IMG/VR virus record: IMGVR_UViG_3300017913_002464
Span: 1 to 48,006 of that record
Length of the DNA stretch: 48,006 nucleotides
Source of the DNA: a virus
Lineage: Duplodnaviria > Caudoviricetes
Direction: 5' to 3' (one strand)
Shown: one piece after another, positions 9,229 through 32,907 of the stretch
Layout: every line of letters begins with the position of its first letter
Position numbering within the stretch: position 1 is the stretch's first letter
Translations under genes and position numbers: made by a program
Notes under the pieces: generated by a model
Database searches by the model: none
Told to the model about the DNA's origin: nothing
Seen by the model: only the letters and a program-made list of their open reading frames with translations

Positions 9229-9509
9229 TAGTTTTCATCTACGCCCCAGCCAGCAGAGGCTAAAGCATCTCCATCCCAGTCATCTAAATAGTTTTCACCA
9301 TCATAGTAATCGTCATTCTCTCCGTGTAGCATAGAGTCGCAGACATCTTGAGCATACTGATAATAGTCTGTATGCTCATCATCAAACAGGTGAAAGTACT
9401 TTGATAAGCGTGCCAAGGTTACATCAGCGTTTTCATAGTCTCCGATATCCATATCTTTTTCTAGCATATCAAAGAGTTCTGTAATTTTTGGCTTCAGTCT
9501 TCGGTTCAT
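9225..9509 (-). CDS. acidic hypothetical protein
   Basis: ATGA-coupled to the cytochrome c stop codon; C-terminal DGDALASAGWG.DE.Y motif typical of phage microproteins. Confidence 0.65.
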   Translation of the reverse strand: MNRRLKPKITELFDMLEKDMDIGDYENADVTLARLSKYFHLFDDEHTDYYQYAQDVCDSMLHGENDDYYDGENYLDDWDGDALASAGWGVDENY

Positions 9510-9817
9510 TTTTCTGGGAATCCTTCTTGAACAAATACGCCGATAGTGCCTATCTGTCCCTCTGTCAAGGCTTGTGCCCAAGGATACATCATAGCAGACT
9601 GAGCACCAATAGGATGACCCATTCTATAATGTAGTAGCTTGCTAATAATATCATCAGCAGACTGTCCTGCAAGTTGAGGCCCAATACCGCCCTGCCCCTG
9701 AGCGCCGTGACAAGTGGTACACATCTTCCACTTCTCTCGAATATTTTCAAAGCGATCTTCTGCTTCTACTGCCGGTGCCAGCATTAGTAATGCTGTGGTG
9801 AATAAAACTTTTTTCAT
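9506..9817 (-). CDS. periplasmic class I monoheme cytochrome c (c553/c4-like)
   Basis: Sec signal peptide, CTTCHG heme motif, GPQLAGQ, distal Met (SAMM). Confidence 0.9.
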   Translation of the reverse strand: MKKVLFTTALLMLAPAVEAEDRFENIREKWKMCTTCHGAQGQGGIGPQLAGQSADDIISKLLHYRMGHPIGAQSAMMYPWAQALTEGQIGTIGVFVQEGFPEK

Positions 9818-11599: not shown

Positions 11600-12316
11600 T
11601 TAAGCTTTTGCAGACTTAGCTGCGCCGTCATAGTCAGCGGCAGTCAAGCCACGACGAGTCAACATAGTCTTGACTCCACGTGCAGTTTTACCGATAGACT
11701 CGGCAATAGCTTCTACAGTCATAGAAGCAACATCTACATCAGCGAGAGGGTCAGCGTTTGCTGGGCCCTTAGTGTTTTCCTGACGAGGAATCGCTTGGAT
11801 ATCGCCAGAACGAAGAAGGCTAAGAGCCTTACCACGAACACTGTTTACAGAACGGCCAAGAGCCTCTGCAATAGCCTCAACGAAAGCGCCATCATTCACC
11901 ATGCCGATGAAAGTATCCTCTTCTTCAGGCGTGTAGGTACGCACAGATTCAGCCTTAGGAGCAGGTGCGACGTGCTCAGTCAACTCCATAGACAAGATTT
12001 TGCCTTGAATTGACTTGGCTGAGAAAGAACCGCCTTCAAAGTGCTCAGCAATTTGAGCATAAGTGTACTGACCAGAGTTGTCAGTAACGAAGGTACGGAG
12101 AGTAGCTTCTTGAGCTTCGCTGAAAGATTTGCCAGCAGCTGCTGAAGCAAGTTCTACTTCAAATCCCATCTTTCGCAGTTTGCTAGAGATAGAACGAGCA
12201 GATGTTTCAAGCTGGTCTGCTGCTTCTGCAACAGTAGCCTGAGATACGGGGCTCTCAGAGCCCACGAAGTCGGTAAGCGCCTGAGTGCGCTCATCTGTCC
12301 ACTTAGGAAGTGCCAT
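11600..12316 (-). CDS. T5 D5-like DNA-binding protein
   Basis: Repeated HTH-like units (ARSISSKL, AKSIQGKI, VNSVRGKA, ARGVKTML); ends LTRRGLTAADYDGA; T5 synteny. Confidence 0.85.
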   Translation of the reverse strand: MALPKWTDERTQALTDFVGSESPVSQATVAEAADQLETSARSISSKLRKMGFEVELASAAAGKSFSEAQEATLRTFVTDNSGQYTYAQIAEHFEGGSFSAKSIQGKILSMELTEHVAPAPKAESVRTYTPEEEDTFIGMVNDGAFVEAIAEALGRSVNSVRGKALSLLRSGDIQAIPRQENTKGPANADPLADVDVASMTVEAIAESIGKTARGVKTMLTRRGLTAADYDGAAKSAKA

Positions 12317-14787: not shown

Positions 14788-15147
14788 TTAGCTGTTTACT
14801 GCTGAAATAACACCTGCAAAGTACATTGCTGCTTTACCTGTCAACTTGCTAACGATCTCTTCGTCAACATCTTGACCAGCATCAGTCAGTGCTGCTGTGA
14901 GCGCTTCAATAGCGGCTGCTTTAGATACACGGCCACCGCCTGTGCTACCGCCTGATGAAGCTGCTTTAGTTGCTGGAGCTTTCTTTACATATACGCCAGC
15001 TTTAGTCAGAACCATACGAACACCGTTTGGTGACTGCTCGAATTGCTCTGCGATCTCTGCGACGATCTCCATGCTGTTCTCTGGAGTTGGGTTAGCGGCC
15101 TCGTATGCTTCGATAACTTCCGCCTTCTGTTCGTCTGTCCACGCCAT
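14788..15147 (-). CDS. T5 D3-like DNA-binding protein
   Basis: MAWTDEQK...SPNGVRMVLTKAGVYVKK...RVSK...SKLTGKAA; alternative in-frame start at 15234. Confidence 0.85.
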   Translation of the reverse strand: MAWTDEQKAEVIEAYEAANPTPENSMEIVAEIAEQFEQSPNGVRMVLTKAGVYVKKAPATKAASSGGSTGGGRVSKAAAIEALTAALTDAGQDVDEEIVSKLTGKAAMYFAGVISAVNS

Positions 15148-15260
15148 TTTACGTTTCCTTCTGTTAGTTGTTAGTGATGCTCCGGGACAAGTACCCGTAG
15201 CCTGTAGTTGTGATAAATAAAATCGGTCGCCCATTGGTTTCCTCAGTTTCAATACTATGT

Positions 15261-16425: not shown

Positions 16426-16705
16426 CTCCTATCATCATACGTAGATACCAAATGGCTTTTTCTACGTCTTGTTTTTTATTCTGCTTGTTCTTGCAGCGCC
16501 AAATGTATTTGAACGCATTAAGATGGCAATACTCCTCAAACCCCTCGTCTGAAGTGATTTGTTTCATTGCGTCGATACACTCAACCCCGTCGCGATTATA
16601 ATGTGCAGGACTATTTACTGGGTCATGCACTAGTTTAGCAGGCCCCTTAAAACTGAGCCCTTGTCCGTCTGCTGTTTTTGTCCAGCCTTCTGATAAATTA
16701 CTCAA
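16406..16705 (-). CDS. DUF3310 / T7 gp1.7-like nucleotide kinase domain protein
   Basis: DPVNSPAHY...VECIDAM...NAFKYIWR...DVEKAIWYL. Confidence 0.88.
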
Positions 16706-17904
16706 AACTGTTCTGCCTCCGTTGAATCTGCCATAGCCGCCGTACTACTGCCGAGGGCTGTTGTGATTGCATCAAAGTATCCAACACCTACTTCCTGCTG
16801 ATGTCGAGTTGATGTGTATCCAAACTGTTCTGCTGCAAACTCTGCTTCCTGTAGCTGAGAGTATGCAAACATTCCGCGATCCTTGTACTGACGTGCAAAG
16901 TTAAATACGCCATAGTTTGTACTATGAAAACCCGCCAATGTAATGAACTGAAACTTAAAGCCCATTTTTCCAAGTTCATACTGAAAGTCTTGCAGTTCCT
17001 GATCTCCAGGAATAGACTTTCTCCAGTTAAAGGAAGGAGAACAGTTGTATGCTAACATTGCGTCCGGGCAAGATCCTTTTACTGCGTCAGCAAACCGTCG
17101 AGCTTCTTTGAGACAGGGCTTGCTTGTTTCACACCACACGAGATCTGCGTATTCTGCATATGCAGCCCCACGTTCACATCCCATCTCAAGTCCGCCTTCA
17201 ATCTGCCAAAATCCGTCAGCAGTACGGTCTCCGGACATCCACTTGTAGTCTGCTTGGTCGTAGTCGCTAGAGAGGAGTCTGGCTGACTCGGCATCAGTCC
17301 GAGCGACGACCAAAGTATCAACCCCAGCAACGTCAGCAGCAAGACGAGCGGCGTTAAGATTGCGGATAGCATCACTAAGAGGTATAAGGACTTTTCCTCC
17401 AAGGTGACCGCATTTTTTGGCGGACGCAAGCTGGTCTTCAAAATGGACACCAGCCGCCCCAGCTTCGATGAGATTTCTAGCCAATTCATAACTATTTAGT
17501 ACTCCTCCAAATCCTGCTTCTGCGTCTGCAATAATGGGTGCAAACTCAAAGCCAGTACCACTTTCTGCATACTGGATTTGGTCAGCACGACGGAAAGCGT
17601 TATTAATGTTACGCACAACATTGGGTACAGAATCCACACTATAAAGAGACTGGTCAGGGTATACTTCATTGTTTGTGTTAGCTGATGCAGCGACCTGCCA
17701 GCCTGAGCAATAGATTGCTTTAAGACCTGCTTTGACGTGCTGTACAGCCTGCTGACCGTTGTACGCTCCAAATGTATGAATGTAAGGGTTTTCTGCAAGA
17801 AGCATACGCATTTTGTTTGCCATTTTTCTTGCAAGTGTATGTTCAATATCCATTGTGCCCTGAAGTTTTCTTACATCTTCACGGCTGTAGTTTCGTTTTT
17901 TCAC
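16702..17904 (-). CDS. aceA: isocitrate lyase
   Basis: [28 protein letters not shown], catalytic [37 protein letters not shown]. Confidence 0.97.
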
Positions 17905-18538: not shown

Positions 18539-19120
18539 TTAATTACCCTCTCGCAGCTTATTTAAAATGTATGCAGGATCTGTAAACATATAAGGATCCT
18601 TCTTGTGATTATCTTCTCGACCTTCTTCAATGAACCAATCTGTAATATGTCCATTCTCGACTACCGCTGCATAGCGCCATGAGCGACGTCCAAAGCCAAG
18701 ATTGTCTTTATCTACAACCATTGACATTGCTTCAGTAAAGTTTGCATTGCCATCAGGAATAACTTGTACTTCTTTCAGATTGTTTGCTTTCGCCCAGGCA
18801 TTGCATACAAATGCATCATTTACTGTGAAACAGTAGATTGAGTCAATGCCTTCTGCATAGATTTCAGGCGCTAACTGCTCAAACGAAGGCAGTTGGTAGG
18901 TGGAGCAAGTTGGAGTAAATGCTCCAGGAAGTGAAAAGAGTAGAACTCGTTTGTTAGAAAACAAGTCCCACGTAGTTACTGATTTCCAGTCATATTGATC
19001 TCGTGTACCATCGTAGATACGAGTTTGAAATGTTACTGCTGGAATAAGTTCTGGTAAACAACGCCAGTAGCCACGCTCTTCGTATTCGTGGCGCTCGTGT
19101 TCGGTACAATAAATAGCCAT
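18539..19120 (-). CDS. peroxiredoxin (Prx5/redoxin family)
   Basis: FSLPGAFTPTCS, VNDAFV, PDGNANFT, GFGRRSWRYA. Confidence 0.94.
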   Translation of the reverse strand: MAIYCTEHERHEYEERGYWRCLPELIPAVTFQTRIYDGTRDQYDWKSVTTWDLFSNKRVLLFSLPGAFTPTCSTYQLPSFEQLAPEIYAEGIDSIYCFTVNDAFVCNAWAKANNLKEVQVIPDGNANFTEAMSMVVDKDNLGFGRRSWRYAAVVENGHITDWFIEEGREDNHKKDPYMFTDPAYILNKLREGN

Positions 19121-19690
19121 TTAAGCCTCGCTGTAAATTAAATTAGTGTGTGCATGATGTTGTTCATCCTGCCGTATGTACTTCAACATCTCGTACAGAG
19201 TAGCATCCGGTAAAAGATTATAGTATTCAATAGCAATTTGAGGAGCAGGAACATTTTGAATACGTCCTGCATCAATTTCCCCCAGGTAGGCAGTATAGCT
19301 TTGTACTGCTTCTTCTTCAAAGTAATGTATCATGAGATGCGCTGTACGAGGCGCTACTAGATACATGAGAAGGTAATAGTGCCAGAATATAAACTGTGCA
19401 AGTACGATGAGACCCCGCTCCAGCTTTGTAGGCTGTACTACCTCCATAATAAACATCAAATGCTTACGTTCGTTTTCCGCTTCTGCAAGCATTTCGTGGA
19501 TCTTACTACCCTGCCCTTTCTTTAGCCCACGTAGGCTTGACAGGTGTGTAAGCATTCCGGCAACCATTCCCGGTACTCCAGCAATGGTTTCCAGAACTAC
19601 AGCTCTATGACCATACCGCTCGCGGAAGAACATATCCGCAGTAAAGCGAAAGAACTTGGTCATAGATTTTGCAACAATTTTGTTAGACAT
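19121..19690 (-). CDS. aox: alternative oxidase (ubiquinol oxidase, di-iron)
   Basis: LETIAGVPGMV, EAENERKHL, FEEEAVQSY, IRQDEQHH; AOX-type rather than PTOX-type signatures. Confidence 0.93.
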   Translation of the reverse strand: MSNKIVAKSMTKFFRFTADMFFRERYGHRAVVLETIAGVPGMVAGMLTHLSSLRGLKKGQGSKIHEMLAEAENERKHLMFIMEVVQPTKLERGLIVLAQFIFWHYYLLMYLVAPRTAHLMIHYFEEEAVQSYTAYLGEIDAGRIQNVPAPQIAIEYYNLLPDATLYEMLKYIRQDEQHHAHTNLIYSEA

Positions 19691-20129
19691 TTTCAAGTCT
19701 TGTCATTAACCTCTCTGCTCGATTCCCTACTTGCTTGTGCCAGAGCGAGTCTCGCCCTTCGATAGCTGCTTGGGACCATTCGCCGTCCACAAGATGGGCA
19801 TTCATTTTTTTGAATTTGCGAAGTCTTGGGCGCCCGAGGTTGAACATCATGTTTACGAGTATCTCTTGTACTTCTCCAGGGAAGCCTTCCCAGACGTCTG
19901 GGCCATAGAGTGCAACGCATTCGCTTACAGCCACATCGAGATCGCTTTCAAAACACTCGATGACTCGCTCAACTGAGACTGGCTCTCCAACGTCGTATCC
20001 GTGTTCTGGATCTGACTCAAGCACGAAATGTCCCACTCCGAAGGTTTTGTACCCAAGATGGTCCAAATAAATTTCATACACTACTCCTTCATCAACCTTG
20101 AGCTGTTCGTAGACTGCTTCTCTGTTCAT
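19683..20129 (-). CDS. T4-lysozyme-like muramidase (GH24)
   Basis: DEGVVYEIYLDHLGYKTFGVGH catalytic E/D/T pattern; NMMFNLG, DSLWHKQVGNRA. Confidence 0.9.
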   Translation of the reverse strand: MNREAVYEQLKVDEGVVYEIYLDHLGYKTFGVGHFVLESDPEHGYDVGEPVSVERVIECFESDLDVAVSECVALYGPDVWEGFPGEVQEILVNMMFNLGRPRLRKFKKMNAHLVDGEWSQAAIEGRDSLWHKQVGNRAERLMTRLENV

Positions 20130-20434: not shown

Positions 20435-20851
20435 CTATGAAATGGTAACCTTAACTGGTTGCAACTCCTTAGGGATTTCTTCATGCAAGTCGATGCATAG
20501 CAGACCACGCTCCATGTAAGCTCGATCAAGAATGACGTGTTCGCTTACTCCGAACGTTCGTGTGAAACACTTACCACTCAGTCCTTTGTAGACATAGACT
20601 TCTTCAGCAGGCAGTGCTTGCTTTGTAAGCCCTTCTACTTTTAAAACTCCTTTGTGTAGGCTAATTTCGATGTCCTCTTTGTTCCATCCAGGCACAGCTA
20701 ATTCGATACGAAAACCTGTATCTCCAACTTTTAGGATATTAAAACGAGGATAGCCGCCGTCAAGAGTTCCGGCAAATAAGTTTGTGTCCATGAATCGGTC
20801 AAAACCTAACAGATATTTCTGCAGGTCAGCCATAGCTAACTGCTTAGTCAT
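20435..20851 (-). CDS. small heat shock protein (Hsp20/IbpA family)
   Basis: LGFDRF, YPRFNI, IELAVPG, YKGLS...FTRTF, GLLCIDL. Confidence 0.92.
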   Translation of the reverse strand: MTKQLAMADLQKYLLGFDRFMDTNLFAGTLDGGYPRFNILKVGDTGFRIELAVPGWNKEDIEISLHKGVLKVEGLTKQALPAEEVYVYKGLSGKCFTRTFGVSEHVILDRAYMERGLLCIDLHEEIPKELQPVKVTIS

Positions 20852-22622: not shown

Positions 22623-22953
22623 GAAACTTGGATTCGCAATCTATGATCTTTATGAGTTTTTCTTTAACTTAAAGATCAATCCATTGCGACACATACCAAA
22701 TCCGTTTACTCAGTTTATATTGATGTTTTACTTGTCTGTAATGTGGACAGCTATTTTCACATTCTGGGCAGGCTACACAATTTACTTTGGAATCTACAGC
22801 GTGGGAGGCCATCTCATGGTTGTAGGTGGATTTTTTATTACTGCTATCACTTTTCGTGATGCAGAAAAGAATGGCCACTTGTGGGTGCAAAGATTCCCGC
22901 CAGCGGACAGAACCAAAAACAAAACTGTCTGGGACTTGGAGAAGGAAGGCTAA
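22615..22953 (+). CDS. membrane protein
   Basis: NPLRHIPNP followed by two hydrophobic segments; ends WDLEKEG. Confidence 0.7.
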   Translation: MIKKLGFAIYDLYEFFFNLKINPLRHIPNPFTQFILMFYLSVMWTAIFTFWAGYTIYFGIYSVGGHLMVVGGFFITAITFRDAEKNGHLWVQRFPPADRTKNKTVWDLEKEG

Positions 22954-23342
22954 TGTATTCAGATAAAGTAATAGATCACTATGAAAATCCTCGCAATGTT
23001 GGAAAGATGGATAGAGAGGATAAGGATGTCGGTACAGGTATGGTGGGAGCACCTGCCTGTGGTGATGTTATGCAGTTGCAAATAAGAGTAGAAGATGGAA
23101 TCATTGAAGACGCTAAATTTAAAACCTACGGCTGCGGTAGTGCTATTGCTTCTAGTTCTTTACTCACCGAGTGGGTCAAAGGCAAAAGTTTGGAAGAAGC
23201 CGGGCGAATCACTAATACAGACATCGCACGAGAACTTACACTACCTCCAGTAAAAATACACTGCTCAGTACTTGCAGAGGATGCCATCAAAGCTGCAATC
23301 GCAGACTATAATCAAAAGGAGCACACGGCCAACAATCAATGA
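22953..23342 (+). CDS. iscU: Fe-S cluster scaffold IscU
   Basis: YSDKVIDHYENPRNVG, APACGDVM, KTYGCGSAIASSS, LPPVKIHCS. Confidence 0.96.
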   Translation: MYSDKVIDHYENPRNVGKMDREDKDVGTGMVGAPACGDVMQLQIRVEDGIIEDAKFKTYGCGSAIASSSLLTEWVKGKSLEEAGRITNTDIARELTLPPVKIHCSVLAEDAIKAAIADYNQKEHTANNQ

Positions 23343-26197: not shown

Positions 26198-26445
26198 TAA
26201 TCCCACCTTGACCCCGCTACTGCTTTTGCAATCGAATACATTTCTTCCGCTTTTACATTCTCAAACTCAATCATATTTTCACTTTCAAGAACACGCCAGC
26301 TTCTTACTGGTAATTTTCGTTGGCAGATCTTTACTGCTTTCTGAAAATCCTCGACTTTTTCGAATTTCCACTTTGGTCCTTTCAACATCGTATTTCTCAT
26401 TCCTAGCATTTCTTCATGCTCTCCTGTGTATCCTCCACACATCAC
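26197..26445 (-). CDS. hypothetical protein
   Basis: ORF coupled to its neighbours, GGAGG RBS. Confidence 0.6.
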   Translation of the reverse strand: MMCGGYTGEHEEMLGMRNTMLKGPKWKFEKVEDFQKAVKICQRKLPVRSWRVLESENMIEFENVKAEEMYSIAKAVAGSRWD

Positions 26446-26795
26446 AGACCTCCGGGGTAATCTTTGTGTTCGTACAGCTCGTTTAACCCCGCCACTGCTT
26501 TTTCCAAGTTTCGTAATGCTGCTTTGGGACTTTTCTCGAGGCCAGCCAGAGTTGAATTTTCAAGTCCAAGACTCTCAGCGATATTACTAACGATTTCCAC
26601 TTTCGTGATAGGTGCTTCACCAGTTTTCGATACATACACTTCTCTCCTGTAGACGCCTTCTCTACTGAGCTTGCCAATGATTGATTTCTTACTTTTACCA
26701 TAATGAAATGCTAGATGCTCTACAGTTTCGGGATTAGGGTTGTTTACATACTCTTCCACTATTGCTTCTGTCATTTCTGCTGTATATGTGCTCAA
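26442..26795 (-). CDS. T5 A2/D3-family DNA-binding protein
   Basis: YTAEMTEAIVEEY...GKSKKSIIGKLSREGVY...KVEIV...LAGLEKSPK architecture. Confidence 0.7.
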   Translation of the reverse strand: MSTYTAEMTEAIVEEYVNNPNPETVEHLAFHYGKSKKSIIGKLSREGVYRREVYVSKTGEAPITKVEIVSNIAESLGLENSTLAGLEKSPKAALRNLEKAVAGLNELYEHKDYPGGL

Positions 26796-28659: not shown

Positions 28660-28778
28660 TTATCCAACTCCCTTGCCAAGTGTTCGTTAGTGGTGACTAG
28701 TACAAGTGCACCACTATTATTGTAGACGAACCACTCTTTAGTGAACCCGTCATCTTTAAGCTTCATGACGATAGCCAT
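28638..28778 (-). CDS. 46-aa microprotein
   Basis: Manual translation MAIVMKLKDDGFTKEWFVYNNSGALVLVTTNEHLARELDKCYQKKK; TAATG-coupled. Confidence 0.55.
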   Translation of the reverse strand: MAIVMKLKDDGFTKEWFVYNNSGALVLVTTNEHLARELDKCYQKKK

Positions 28779-29101
28779 TAGCCTACCAGTGCGTCGATCA
28801 TGAACTGAAGGTCAGGCTTGGTCATTTTGTTGAGCGAAGGCAACTCGCGACCGATAGCATTTTGTACTTGTGCTACCAGCTCAGCCTTCATTACAACAGG
28901 CTCGCCACGCTTGGTTACACGCTCAGCCTTCTGGTAGATACCAAGAGCAGCGAGCTTCGCAATGATAGAGCGAGGTGTTTTGTTGAGGCGTACGGCCAGG
29001 GCGTCGACAGTCTCACGAGTTGGCTCGAGAGTGTACTCGTCTGTGATCATAGTGATGTCTGCGTCTGAGTAGTTAGCAGATGCTTTTGCAGTTACGTCCA
29101 T
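28778..29101 (-). CDS. T5 A2/D3-family DNA-binding protein
   Basis: NYSDADITMITDEY...NKTPRSIIAKLAALGIYQK...KAELV...SLNKMTK. Confidence 0.72.
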   Translation of the reverse strand: MDVTAKASANYSDADITMITDEYTLEPTRETVDALAVRLNKTPRSIIAKLAALGIYQKAERVTKRGEPVVMKAELVAQVQNAIGRELPSLNKMTKPDLQFMIDALVG

Positions 29102-29147
29102 AAAAATTTCTCCCAAAAATTAGTTAGTGTTTCGATTCAATATAGAT

Positions 29148-29576: not shown

Positions 29577-29740
29577 GAACTTTTTTCCGAATTGGTCGTA
29601 AAAGAACGCACCCGAATTCCGGGGGGCCGTCCACGACCTCGGCGTGTCAAGTAAAATTTGCACCAATTTACCAAAATTTTCGTGAATTTTCCCACCAAAT
29701 CTGCCATAATCTTAACAGACCCCGCGAAGACTATCAAGCG

Positions 29741-30043
29741 AAAAATTTGGTACAATTGCCGTAAAAAGTACTTGACAGCCGGGGACGGGTGTGGTACAAT
29801 CGGCGCCGGCAACGAAGACTGGTAATTTTAACAATTTGCACCTTTTGGGTAAAAAGTACTTGACAATCGCATCGGAACTGCACTATAATCGGCGCCGCCG
29901 CGCCAAAAGACCAATTGATTTGGAAAAATTTGCACCTTACCCGAAAAAAAGACTTGACAATTGTCAACTTTGCACTCATACTGGCGCAAGCGACACCAAT
30001 GAACATCGTCGTCGTACTACTACTGGCGCGCCCGCGCCAAAAA
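29741..30043 (+). repeat. three ~90-bp degenerate repeat units, each containing a sigma70 promoter, plus a partial fourth; injection-stop-signal-like region
   Basis: Unit AATTTG[CA/GT].C ... AAAAAG(T)ACTTGACA-17/18-TACAAT/TATAAT/CATACT-(C)GGCGC; -35 boxes at 29772, 29860, 29954. Confidence 0.8.
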
Positions 30044-30061
30044 TCTCAATGTGTCAAGGCG

Positions 30062-30077
30062 TGTTCCACGTGGAACA
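30062..30077. promoter_or_regulatory. parS: parS centromere-like palindrome TGTTCCACGTGGAACA
   Basis: Perfect 16-bp palindrome identical to the Pseudomonas-type chromosomal parS; intergenic. Confidence 0.8.
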
Positions 30078-30086
30078 GGCGGCGCG

Positions 30087-30803
30087 TCAAGCCACCTTGG
30101 AGCCGTGAACGTCGGGGTCGTCTCCCGCGTTCGAGTTGACGATGCGCCACGGCTGGGCGTTGACGATGCCGTAGGGGACGCGGCGTTTCTGCTTGAAACA
30201 TTCCGCGAGAATGGCAACCTCGATTCGCGCATCCGATAGTGCGGTATGGTCTTCAATGAATGACAGATCGCCCGAACAGTAGCGGTGAGCAAATTCTGCG
30301 CCCGTCTTGATATTGCCAGCCGGTGAAATCCAGCCTTGTGAGCGAGCGATATTGGCGTATGCCTTTTGGCTAAGTTTGGTCTCGCAAGCAAATTGCCAGA
30401 TATCGAGAATCTTGACCGGCGATTGCAGAATGGCACCCTCACCGCCTAGATCCGCGTGAGTCTGACGCAAAACGCGGAAGTCAAAACCGGCGTTATAAGC
30501 CGCGATGACATCGACACCATGAGTGAGAAAGTCAGCCCGCATAGTGCCGACGATCTCAGCCCAAGGCGTGAGGCGAATCTCACCATCCTGAAGCATTCGA
30601 GCGTAGTGGGTGAAATGCTTGCCCGCATAGAATGCGCCCATCATGCGCTTGGGGTTGGTGAAGTTTTCCTCAACAAGCCAATTACGCTCAAGCGCGATAT
30701 TGCCGCGCTTGTCGTGAATGCAATAGCCAATGTCATAAACGTGACCCTCGAGACCGACGGTCTCAGTATCCAGAGTCGCAATAGAAAGTTTTTGAATAGT
30801 CAT
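30087..30803 (-). CDS. DEDDh 3'-5' exonuclease (candidate pre-early gene)
   Basis: LDTET, AYNAGFD, LDIW, EDHTALSDA. Confidence 0.88.
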   Translation of the reverse strand: MTIQKLSIATLDTETVGLEGHVYDIGYCIHDKRGNIALERNWLVEENFTNPKRMMGAFYAGKHFTHYARMLQDGEIRLTPWAEIVGTMRADFLTHGVDVIAAYNAGFDFRVLRQTHADLGGEGAILQSPVKILDIWQFACETKLSQKAYANIARSQGWISPAGNIKTGAEFAHRYCSGDLSFIEDHTALSDARIEVAILAECFKQKRRVPYGIVNAQPWRIVNSNAGDDPDVHGSKVA

Positions 30804-31273
30804 GCCGCAAGCCTCGCGTTGATTTCAAGAGCATCATAGCATTTCAAGCCATGATCGGAAAGGGTTTTGATGACGCTTTGATTGTCGTCAAACATTAAGG
30901 AAAAGTTGCAGAAGCGACGCCATGACCCGCGTTTAGTGGTAGAGTAGCGGCGAAGCATTCTCAGCTTGAGTTCATCGTCTGGCGTGCGGTCGCCCTCTTG
31001 ACGCGACAGAAGCGCGTCAAAGTGAAGGCCAGCGTTCGCCAAATAATCCATGTCAGCTTGACCGATAACGCGAGCAGTACAGACGACGATCTCATTACCG
31101 CGTGCGAATTGCTCACGCCATACCCTAGCGAGTGGCAATAGCTTATCGCGGCGAATCATGCCAGCCGTCGAATTTTCGCGCCAGTGGTCAAGGTCTAGGG
31201 AGCCGTCGGGCAATGTCGCTTGACGGTGAGAGCTGTCGATCACGGTGTGATCTAGATCAAAAATATATCGCAT
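30800..31273 (-). CDS. HAD-family phosphatase (PNKP 3'-phosphatase-like; candidate pre-early gene)
   Basis: IFDLDHT, VCTAR, DDELK, MFDDN. Confidence 0.85.
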   Translation of the reverse strand: MRYIFDLDHTVIDSSHRQATLPDGSLDLDHWRENSTAGMIRRDKLLPLARVWREQFARGNEIVVCTARVIGQADMDYLANAGLHFDALLSRQEGDRTPDDELKLRMLRRYSTTKRGSWRRFCNFSLMFDDNQSVIKTLSDHGLKCYDALEINARLAA

Positions 31274-31454
31274 AGCAATAGCCTCCAATGCCGATAATAT
31301 TGAGTAATATCAAATTGTGCGATCGTGTCGCGTGTGCCTGAATGGTCAGAAGAAAAAGCCCGACAATCGCGACGCCCTTACCGGCGTCGGTGTCGATGAT
31401 GAAGGGGGCGATGCACATTAGCAACGCCCCGACCCAAGCGCAGAAGCCGATCAT
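31257..31454 (-). CDS. small three-helix membrane protein
   Basis: Hydrophobic; ATGA-coupled. Confidence 0.7.
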   Translation of the reverse strand: MIGFCAWVGALLMCIAPFIIDTDAGKGVAIVGLFLLTIQAHATRSHNLILLNIIGIGGYCYAIYF

Positions 31455-31750
31455 CCGATCGACTCCAGAACCGCGGATAGCTCCGCTTTGGTGAGATCGC
31501 CGGAGCGATCTTTCAGCGCGAGCGATTTACGAATCGCCGCGAGATAATCCGCCTTTGTAGGCGTAGCCTCACGAGGTGAGCGAGGCGCTGGAGTCGCCTT
31601 GACGTATTCAACGCCCAGCGATTGCGCCTTAGAGATCACCGAACGGTGAGTAACATTGCCGAATTCGGCGGCCAATTCCTTGGCCTTGGCAAGGTTAAGG
31701 GGAGCCGCGTTTTGGATGCGTGCGACCATCGCAGAAGTGTAGTTAGACAT
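31451..31750 (-). CDS. T5 A2-like DNA-binding protein (candidate pre-early gene)
   Basis: MSNYTSAMV...ELAAEFGNVTHRSVISKAQSLGVEYVK...TKADYLAAI...LTKAEL; GAGGA RBS. Confidence 0.7.
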   Translation of the reverse strand: MSNYTSAMVARIQNAAPLNLAKAKELAAEFGNVTHRSVISKAQSLGVEYVKATPAPRSPREATPTKADYLAAIRKSLALKDRSGDLTKAELSAVLESIG

Positions 31751-31782
31751 AAGCAAAATCCTCATTAGTTAAGAGAAGGTGA

Positions 31783-31811
31783 ATTGTAGTTGAAAATCAG
31801 AAAAAAGTAAA
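31783..31811 (-). promoter_or_regulatory. sigma70 promoter TTTACT-17-TACAAT for the four-gene cassette
   Basis: Hexamers and spacing; about 30 nt upstream of the ATG. Confidence 0.7.
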
Positions 31812-31854
31812 TAACCCAAAGGGGGTAGAGCTTGACAGATTGAGATTTTTGTTG

Positions 31855-31965
31855 ATCGCGCGTCTCCGGTTGCGATGCTCTGCCGGCTGGATTTTTTGCG
31901 ACCCTCGCGATGGTGGCGGCGGGTCGATCGGGGCTTTCCCAGTGGGTAGCGACATCCGATGAGGT
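31855..31965 (-). ncRNA. candidate GC-rich structured small RNA
   Basis: Stems ATCGG/CCGAT (with inner CCCA/TGGG), CGACCC/GGGTCG and CCGG/CCGG, downstream of a TTGACG...GAGACT promoter-like element (31969-31996). Confidence 0.45.
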
Positions 31966-32098
31966 AATAGTCTCATAGGTCGGGCCCGACCGTCAATAGT
32001 TTTTGGCAAGTTTTTTTGAATTATTTTTTGGTAATATTTCACAATTTTTTCGCGCGAGTTTTGCCTTTTGTCGCGCAGAGGAAAAAGTCGAAAATGTT

Positions 32099-32117
32099 AA
32101 ATGATAATCATTCTCAT
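32099..32117. promoter_or_regulatory. Fur box
   Basis: TGATAATCATTCTCA (32102-32116) has one mismatch to the 7-1-7 consensus TGATAATNATTATCA. Confidence 0.7.
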
Positions 32118-32213
32118 CTAGGGGGGCGGTTAGCAGACCTTGACAAAATTTTTTCGCGCGCGCTCCCCCACACGTACAACTTTGGGGTTTTTCGTACCAA
32201 AGAAAAATAGCGC

Positions 32214-32242
32214 TTGACATTTCAGCTCCTTTAAAATATAAT
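32214..32242 (+). promoter_or_regulatory. sigma70 promoter TTGACA-17-TATAAT heading the late region
   Basis: Perfect consensus. Confidence 0.88.
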
Positions 32243-32270
32243 TTGAGAAATAGAAATCTAAGCACGGAAA

Positions 32271-32453
32271 ATGTTGAAAGTAACTTACAAACACTGGAAA
32301 AGTGGGGCCATACTGGAAGTTGTGGGCGAGATGCCCAAACCTTGCAATAATGGGTCGAGTGATCGCGTTGTTGTTCTACAACCTGACGGGACTTACAAAG
32401 ATATAATAAAGGCCACAATCGTGAGAGTTGAGGAATACACCCCAGATGAGTAA
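32271..32453 (+). CDS. hypothetical protein
   Basis: First ORF after the promoter. Confidence 0.6.
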   Translation: MLKVTYKHWKSGAILEVVGEMPKPCNNGSSDRVVVLQPDGTYKDIIKATIVRVEEYTPDE

Positions 32454-32907
32454 AGAAATTACTACAATCTCCCCAGAAGGACTAGAGGTTGCAAATGCTT
32501 ATTTGCAGTTCGGCAACATTCGTGCCGTTTGTGAATATATGAACGTCCCAGAAAATAAAGTGGTAGACGTACTTAACAAGCGTGAAGTTAAAAAGTATAT
32601 TGATACTGTATACCTAGACATGGGGTATCGGAACAAAAATAACATCGCATCTGTTCTAGACGAAATGATACAGAGCAAGCTTGAAGAAGCACAGGAAACT
32701 GGCGTATACTCTTCAAAAGATCTAGCCGATCTACTTCAGATGGCACACAAGATGCGTATGGATGAAATCAAAGCCCAGGCGGATCTGATGAAAGCAGAAA
32801 CTACGAACATTAAGACTCAAAATAATGTTCAGATCAATAGTGAGGGTTTACCGTTCGGCCAAGGCAATTATGGAAAGCTGATGGAAAAACTTCTCAAGGA
32901 GGGTTAA
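32446..32907 (+). CDS. terminase small subunit (T5-like)
   Basis: ISPEGLEVANAYLQ...EVKKYID..Y...GYRN...KLEE...NYGKLMEKL; GAGGA RBS. Confidence 0.78.
   Translation: MSKEITTISPEGLEVANAYLQFGNIRAVCEYMNVPENKVVDVLNKREVKKYIDTVYLDMGYRNKNNIASVLDEMIQSKLEEAQETGVYSSKDLADLLQMAHKMRMDEIKAQADLMKAETTNIKTQNNVQINSEGLPFGQGNYGKLMEKLLKEG

What the first reader, a model, noticed from the sequence alone, without database searches (positions are those of the whole stretch)
29580..32250. Candidate new DNA-entry control module: minimal pre-early cassette framed by host-protein binding sites (parS, RNAP array, Fur)
Seen: between the early and late regions sits a visibly GC-richer ~2.6 kb block with four genes. On one side are a parS site and three ORF-less promoters. 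On the other are a structured RNA candidate and a Fur box. A 21-bp inverted repeat brackets the genes. Known: in T5 this position is the terminal repeat, injected first and ended by a repeat-rich injection stop signal, with A1 and A2 required for the second step. Inference: this is a miniaturised first-step-transfer segment entering from about 32.1 kb leftwards. Host ParB, host RNA polymerase and host Fur would be recruited to anchor, pause or license entry of the rest of the genome, possibly sensing host CTP and iron status. I know of no description of such an arrangement.
Basis: partly seen in the sequence, partly recalled or inferred. Interest (0 to 1): 0.88.

Follow-up and report, generated by a model that had tools for sequence, protein, structure and literature searches.

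The report
Miniature phage end carries host centromere
This 2.5-kb block is very likely the repeated, first-injected end of an uncultured marine T5-like phage, and most relatives keep in it a perfect copy of the bacterial chromosome's ParB-binding 'centromere' site beside a row of strong gene-less promoters, which would make host ParB and RNA polymerase testable candidates for the still-unexplained pause in T5-type DNA injection.

Summary
Mostly confirmed. The block is very likely a T5-type direct terminal repeat, about 29,625-32,163 (2.54 kb; T5's is 10.2 kb). A motif at 32,125 is shared with T5's left end; two metagenome contigs stop at the predicted leading end, one 75-kb contig at the predicted trailing end, and contig depth is raised two- to threefold. 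Genes: A2-like, small membrane protein, T5 Dmp homolog, DEDDh exonuclease; no A1, which T5 needs for second-step transfer. In 35 distinct relatives' spans, parS occurs in 28 (357-696 bp from the trailing end, where T5's stop region lies) and inward sigma70 promoters in 35; three near-complete relatives encode no ParB. The Fur-like box is real but patchy (25 of 35) and also forms repeats in T5's own stop region. The 21-bp inverted repeat and the 'structured RNA' are not conserved. Host ParB binding is likely; a role in pausing entry is inferred only; CTP or iron sensing has no support. Precedents: phi29 parS; Davison's DnaA-box model for T5. This scan noted parS in marine T5-like phages and Fur boxes in T5's stop region before, on other DNA.

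The parts
29625..32163 (.). Predicted direct terminal repeat (2,539 bp); leading (T5 'left') end 32,163-32,166, trailing end 29,625 (depth alone allows up to ~29,950)
   Evidence: T5/My1 end motif, contig ends, unitig depth
29614..29650 (.). Conserved G6 element with a - strand TTGACA 20 nt inside the predicted trailing end
   Evidence: Invariant columns in 12-locus alignment; 24 distinct copies; contig L004/L408 ends at the base equal to 29,625
29772..29800 (+). sigma70 promoter unit 1, no gene downstream, GC-rich discriminator
29860..29889 (+). sigma70 promoter unit 2 (12 of 12)
29954..29982 (+). sigma70 promoter unit 3
30005..30058 (+). Conserved degenerate fourth unit / GC hairpin; holds the left arm of the inverted repeat
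   Evidence: pairing with the right arm not conserved
30062..30077 (.). Host-type parS palindrome, 437 bp from the trailing end
30087..30803 (-). DEDDh 3'-5' exonuclease (predicted); slot held by a T5orf172/GIY-YIG-like protein in 12 of 37 spans
   Evidence: phrog_192 E 1.7e-7; D12, E14, D108, H186, D191 invariant; fold matches DnaQ, TREX, RNase T; swap
30800..31273 (-). HAD phosphatase, homolog of T5 Dmp
   Evidence: 30% identity, E 7e-16; both best match phrog_415
31257..31454 (-). 65-aa hydrophobic protein, no link to T5.005 found
   Evidence: present in 37 of 37 spans
31451..31750 (-). A2-family DNA-binding protein
   Evidence: hhalign probability 94.6, E 6.8e-8 against four A2 proteins; Atlas lead PF26822 on 11% of one cluster; pairwise BLASTP negative
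31783..31811 (-). Candidate promoter of the four-gene operon (9 of 12, within chance range)
31831..31862 (+). Right arm of the 21-bp inverted repeat; strain-specific
32097..32116 (.). Fur-box-like palindrome 48 bp inside the leading end
   Evidence: same motif in the T5 stop region
32125..32175 (-). T5-family left-terminus motif: 14-bp core identical to T5 positions 29-42, plus CACGT just outside the cut
32214..32242 (+). Perfect sigma70 site outside the repeat, facing the late genes
32428..32907 (+). Small terminase subunit (context, outside the repeat)
   Evidence: phrog_3802 E 4e-37; T5-like relatives

Best explanation
The block is very likely the phage's 2.5-kb direct terminal repeat, predicted to enter the cell first from about 32,163 leftwards; it encodes a T5 Dmp homolog, an A2-family protein, a small membrane protein and a predicted exonuclease, and host ParB and RNA polymerase would likely grip its parS site and promoter row, which lie where T5 has its injection-stop region, tethering the first two kilobases while these four genes take over the host. 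Shown: motifs, homologies, conservation, absence of A1 from the repeat and of ParB from three near-complete relatives. Strongly inferred: the two ends and the entry direction (by homology with T5's first-entering end). Inferred, untested: ParB binding, the tether, any pause, and host-DNA degradation by the exonuclease plus Dmp in place of A1 plus Dmp. The promoters face the leading end, so they cannot pull DNA in; they would hold it, or silence the cassette by head-on transcription.
For: End motif: 14-bp identity with T5 positions 29-42, single in the window; 49 distinct copies beside the cassette; 57 of 80 motif loci are T5-like; rule gives My1's annotated repeat start within 1 bp. Contig ends: L502 and L515 stop 39 nt after the core; L004 stops at the 29,625 equivalent. 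Depth: 153-202 inside vs 49-73 outside (X1), 126-184 vs 41-65 (X2), 18.9 vs 8.6-13.9 (X4, another study). Genes. parS 28 of 35 spans, promoters 35 of 35; 30 of 38 loci, 23 of 29 clusters in a second, overlapping set. One parS per genome in 5 of 6 large contigs. No ParB in 3 of 3, controls rang. T5's DnaA and Fur-like boxes lie 564-710 bp from its right end. Some relatives carry DnaA or Fur-like clusters instead.
Against: [quoted passage not shown] T5 and three Vibrio T5-likes have none. Depth is 2.65-3.1 times flank rather than 2, summed over strains, and the tool warns it is no copy number; the unitig over the promoter row is only ~1.6 times flank and X4's 57-bp unitig at 29,654-29,710 is at flank level, which would put the trailing end at 29,790-29,950. 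The trailing end rests on one contig; the G6 profile found no significant match at T5's or My1's right end.
Confidence: 0.5

Rival explanations
1. The repeat is real but parS acts after entry: host ParB positions the phage chromosome or replication centre, or the many replicated copies soak up ParB and stall host segregation, as phi29 uses Spo0J. No role in pausing.
For: phi29 precedent (PMC2731898); parS position varies within the repeat; A1 missing; a site in the repeat is present twice per virion and enters early.
Against: In the main clade it stays 357-696 bp from the trailing end despite gene swaps and occurs nowhere else in the large contigs searched.
Confidence: 0.27
2. The G6 element and promoter row are packaging or repeat-duplication signals: RNA polymerase bound next to the trailing end marks the first terminase cut or primes copying of the repeat (as recalled for T7), and parS serves concatemer handling.
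For: The predicted end lies 20 nt past an invariant TTGAC, as in T5 (+20) and My1 (+22); promoters face into the repeat and persist when the genes flip and have their own promoters.
Against: No significant profile match to T5 or My1 right ends; does not explain a host-type parS. Not exclusive of the best explanation.
Confidence: 0.13
3. The palindromes are sites for phage proteins (several A2-family paralogs, terminase) that only resemble parS and Fur boxes.
For: At least four A2/D5-family proteins in the window; the Fur-like site overlaps the terminus motif in many relatives.
Against: Variation stays within the chromosomal parS consensus; five gammaproteobacterial genomes with the closest IscU carry the same sites.
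Confidence: 0.06
4. [quoted passage not shown]
For: Fur-like sites are far above background: 25 of 35 spans vs 0.013 per kb outside; six copies in T5's stop region.
Against: Absent from 10 of 35; here at the leading end, which would enter before any decision; no test bears on CTP.
Confidence: 0.04

Closest known systems
T5 terminal repeat / first-step-transfer DNA with injection stop signal (AY543070, 1-10,219)
   Same: Position between terS and early genes, left-end motif, Dmp and A2 homologs, non-coding repeat-rich trailing region, Fur-like boxes, TTGACA about 20 nt before the right end.
   Different: Quarter the size; no A1; exonuclease or GIY-YIG-like protein instead; genes point away from the leading end in 35 of 37 spans; parS and a promoter row instead of DnaA boxes.
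Davison's DnaA-box model of the T5 stop signal (10.1101/866236)
   Same: Host origin-handling protein proposed to grip the first-entered DNA at the trailing part of the repeat.
   Different: In silico, DnaA not ParB, depends on A1 cutting; the text has 0 mentions of ParB and its shown 'fur' hits are 'Furthermore'.
phi29 parS sites bound by B. subtilis Spo0J (PMC2731898)
   Same: Lytic phage with host parS and no ParB of its own.
   Different: Five sites, used for entrapment in the spore; not a long terminal repeat, not linked to injection.
T7 A1-A3 early promoter row (recalled, not tested)
   Same: Three closely spaced strong sigma70 promoters at a genome end.
   Different: T7's sit at the leading end and point inward to pull DNA; these sit at the trailing end of the repeat and face the leading end.

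Membership tests
T5-type terminal repeat / FST segment | Direct repeat at both virion DNA ends | tested here: inconclusive
   Indirect but concordant: end motif, contig ends, raised depth; no raw reads or isolate
T5-type terminal repeat / FST segment | T5-like left-terminus sequence upstream of terS | tested here: met
T5-type terminal repeat / FST segment | dmp and A2 genes inside | tested here: met
T5-type terminal repeat / FST segment | A1 gene inside (hallmark of Demerecviridae) | tested here: not met
   phrog_1745: 0 of 5 large relatives, 0 of 3 with T5 and Cilsick ringing; no tblastn hit in window or G6 loci
T5-type terminal repeat / FST segment | Injection pauses until pre-early proteins are made | not testable with these tools
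   No cultured phage-host pair
T5 injection stop signal (Repeat Region 3) | Paired DnaA boxes | tested here: not met
   No DnaA box in 29.5-32.3 kb; at most 1-2 in relatives' zones
T5 injection stop signal (Repeat Region 3) | Conserved non-coding repeats 0.4-0.8 kb from the trailing end | tested here: met
Chromosomal parS (ParABS) | 16-bp consensus palindrome (consensus recalled) | tested here: met
Chromosomal parS (ParABS) | Cognate parAB in the same replicon | tested here: not met
   PF02195 in 0 of 3 near-complete relatives, controls rang
Chromosomal parS (ParABS) | Binds and loads ParB | not testable with these tools
   Needs EMSA or ChIP
Fur operator | 7-1-7 or 19-bp consensus (recalled) | tested here: inconclusive
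   14 of 15 to 7-1-7; 15 of 19 to the 19-bp box
Fur operator | Overlaps a regulated promoter | tested here: not met
   Nearest sigma70 site starts 98 bp away, beyond the predicted end
DEDDh exonuclease | Exo I-III acidic residues, His, DnaQ fold | tested here: met
   (predicted model, pLDDT 77)

The most novel reading that the evidence does not exclude
A widespread marine T5-like lineage runs two-step injection without A1: the first 2 kb enter, host ParB clamps onto parS and RNA polymerase onto the gene-less promoter row to form the stop, and the A2-like protein with an interchangeable nuclease releases it. The T5 'injection stop signal' would then be a swappable dock for abundant host DNA-binding proteins (DnaA, Fur, ParB), and a 2.5-kb repeat would be its minimal form.
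Probability: 0.3. Interest if true: 0.9.

Novelty: new variant of a known kind. Interest (0 to 1): 0.72.

Why it matters
What stops and restarts T5 DNA injection has been open for over fifty years. This lineage strips the first-entering segment to four genes and three or four conserved motifs, drops the 'essential' A1, and puts a centromere site with a well-understood host partner at the stop position. That names host factors and single sites to test, including by grafting into T5 in laboratory E. coli. The left-end motif also lets termini of uncultured T5-like phages be read from sequence.

Tried and rejected
Structured RNA at 31.8-32.1 kb: rejected. Inverted repeat as bracket or inversion signal: not conserved. 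An alignment of T5's right end to 31,798-31,857 (score 50, shuffle maximum 49, another site 47) first suggested the opposite orientation; dropped as generic promoter likeness once the left-end motif was found. Trailing-end candidates 30,032 (inverted-repeat arm) and ~29,880 (depth) were held before 29,625; the depth value is not excluded. Membrane protein vs T5.005: no link. Palindrome avoidance in the repeat is slight (6-mers O/E 0.66 vs 0.76; T5 0.68 vs 0.82), with no significance test. Exonuclease has no sequence match in PDB; the alternative nuclease has none by fold in PDB at E<=0.001. No complex prediction was run.

Full report
Context. The window is part of a T5-like siphophage: polymerase, helicases and ligase on the - strand at left, terminases, portal and head/tail genes on the + strand at right; terS relatives are T5-like phages at 34-44% identity. 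Runs holding it are seawater, estuary and aquatic metagenomes where recorded.

Observation. parS, three + strand sigma70 sites, four - strand genes and the Fur-like palindrome are where stated and beyond chance. The GC-rich part is 29,981-31,990 (0.537 vs 0.418), the highest 2-kb stretch of the window. The 21-bp inverted repeat is present but not conserved and the RNA candidate folds no better than shuffles. The parS, Fur, DnaA and LexA consensus sequences used are recalled.

Leading end. T5's positions 29-42 match the window's - strand at 32,125-32,138 exactly, once. A bipartite form (core, then CAYGT 46-47 nt on) occurs as 49 distinct segments in the relatives fetched and in three Vibrio T5-likes. 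An independent scan gave 119 loci; of the 80 with flanks, 57 are T5-like, 8 with A1, with terS outside or dmp/A2 inside; 23 had no T5-like gene and are counted as misses. Applied to a 122,024-bp record the rule gave a repeat start of 109,170; My1's annotation says 109,171 (I also recalled My1's repeat length, so this is not fully blind). For the window it gives 32,163-32,166. Among 80 metagenome contigs with the motif, 54 end outside within 3.5 kb; two end exactly 39 nt after the core start (= 32,163) and one at 52 with an unlike tail; the 40 short-flank loci add ends at 30 and 53, none at 39.

Trailing end. T5 and My1 end 20 and 22 nt after a TTGACA. Relatives share an element with an invariant G run and a - strand TTGAC at window 29,614-29,650; the +20 rule gives 29,625, and the 75-kb contig L004/L408 ends on that base. 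This is one contig, and a profile of the element did not match T5's or My1's end significantly. Depth is mixed: variants at 29,662-29,668 carry 138-151 in X1/X2, but the unitig 29,741-30,079 is at 104 and 84, which alone places the end at 29,790-29,950, and X4's short unitig at 29,654-29,710 is at flank level.

Depth. Long unitigs near-identical to the window: X1 153-202 inside (258 where strains share sequence) vs 49-73 outside; X2 126-184 vs 41-65; X4 18.9 vs 8.6-13.9; a variant strain in X3 94.6 vs 34; X7 49 vs 15-28. The unitig 31,933-32,721 (82, 70) fits a twofold step at 32,163-32,210. X1-X3 are one study, possibly the source; X4 and X7 are two others; 6 of 20 listed runs were laid. These are contig depths summed over strains, 2.65-3.1 times flank, and the tool warns they are no copy number; I use them as support only.

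Genes. 30,800-31,273 is a T5 Dmp homolog. 31,451-31,750 joins the A2 family by profile though not pairwise. 30,087-30,803 is a predicted DEDDh exonuclease. In 37 spans from the G element to the end motif (2.1-4.2 kb; from 59 loci) A2-like, membrane and Dmp genes are in all 37, the exonuclease in 25 and a second protein in the other 12, never together; its model (pLDDT 73, one of five models good) resembles T5orf172/MUG113 domains at E about 4e-4 and above, a GIY-YIG-like group by my recall. Seventeen spans add PPK2. A1 was not found in five large relatives or the window, against its presence in all 227 Demerecviridae genomes (10.64898/2026.04.02.716235, passages and section 14). In 2 of 37 spans (and L026-L028, L032) the genes are flipped into T5's order while both boundary elements stay.

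Sites. In 35 distinct spans: parS (at most 1 mismatch) in 28, 357-696 bp from the trailing end; at least one inward promoter in 35, two or more in 29; Fur-like site in 25 (18 near the leading end, 12 in the trailing zone) against 0.013 per kb outside. A second, overlapping set gives parS in 30 of 38 loci, 23 of 29 clusters, with the 16 columns conserved and flanks not. Large contigs hold one site each in 5 of 6; three near-complete ones lack ParB. T5 and three Vibrio T5-likes have no parS, but T5's stop region holds six Fur-like repeats, a DnaA box and a LexA-like box 564-809 bp from its right end. Other relatives vary the set: L433 and L423 have A1 and two parS near the leading end, L387 five DnaA boxes by the end motif, L025 Fur-like boxes in place of parS. 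In many relatives the Fur-like site overlaps the end motif.

Mechanism. I commit to: repeat enters first; four genes degrade host DNA and nucleotides in place of A1 plus Dmp; host ParB and RNA polymerase grip the trailing part and tether it, possibly as the stop. My odds: terminal repeat with this leading end 0.9; parS bound by host ParB 0.8; two-step entry 0.5; ParB or the row forming the stop 0.3; iron or CTP sensing under 0.1. Rivals are post-entry positioning or ParB titration, packaging signals, and phage-protein sites.

Literature. Davison 10.1101/866236 (part 1 of 6 and 12 passages) proposes DnaA at the T5 stop. PMC2731898 (3 passages) reports phi29 parS. PMC10644984 (passages) says A1's mechanism is unknown. 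PMC5332604 (passages) links IscU-bearing marine phages to Gammaproteobacteria. PMC6969025 (passages) was irrelevant. Searches listed no paper describing parS or Fur boxes in a T5-like terminal repeat (listings only); subscription papers are not held and I read no supplements, so Davison's supplementary repeat descriptions may bear on the Fur claim. Earlier notes of this scan report parS in marine T5-likes and Fur boxes in T5's stop region on other DNA; they are not independent evidence.

Verdict. A real, conserved variant of the T5 terminal repeat with a host centromere site; function in entry unproven. New variant of a known kind; interest 0.72.

Noticed in passing
L635:4202-4849 and 16 other spans: Polyphosphate kinase 2 gene inside the predicted terminal repeat of 17 of 37 relatives, next to the Dmp homolog.
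   Followed up: partly
L639:5518-6075, L619:3476-4036: Unannotated 170-190 aa family, mutually exclusive with the exonuclease, predicted T5orf172/GIY-YIG-like.
   Followed up: partly
L433 (G409:C1:31009-31319), L423: A1-bearing T5-like phage with two exact parS sites between A1 and dmp, plus nine DnaA boxes and Fur-like boxes.
   Followed up: partly
L387, L368: Lineage with 2-5 DnaA boxes within 112 bp of the left-end motif.
   Followed up: no
L613, L665, L026-L028, L032: Gene block flipped within the repeat into T5's order; boundary elements and promoter row stay put.
   Followed up: partly
L270:9411-9426 and 6213; L271 start: LexA-box-like palindrome (recalled consensus) in T5's stop region and in Vibrio phage Cilsick's.
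   Followed up: no
window 30005-30042; L613: Repeats that look like a promoter unit with its -10 deleted, up to three copies per phage; could be RNA identical to the promoter spacer.
   Followed up: no
window 26442-26795, 28778-29116, 14788-15252, 11600-12316: Four more A2/D5-family DNA-binding genes outside the repeat.
   Followed up: partly
window 9506-9817, 16702-17904, 18539-19696, 20435-20851, 22881-23342: Host-type metabolic genes: cytochrome c-, isocitrate lyase-, peroxiredoxin-, alternative oxidase- and Hsp20-like (labels from reading translations) and IscU (PF01592).
   Followed up: partly
Viral-contig scan, L142-L221: About 9,500 viral stretches hold an exact parS; only 1 of 80 sampled is of this clade, so parS in viral contigs is common for other reasons.
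   Followed up: partly
phages collection: The Fur-like 25-mer also matches non-coding DNA of many 140-152-kb E. coli and Klebsiella phages.
   Followed up: no
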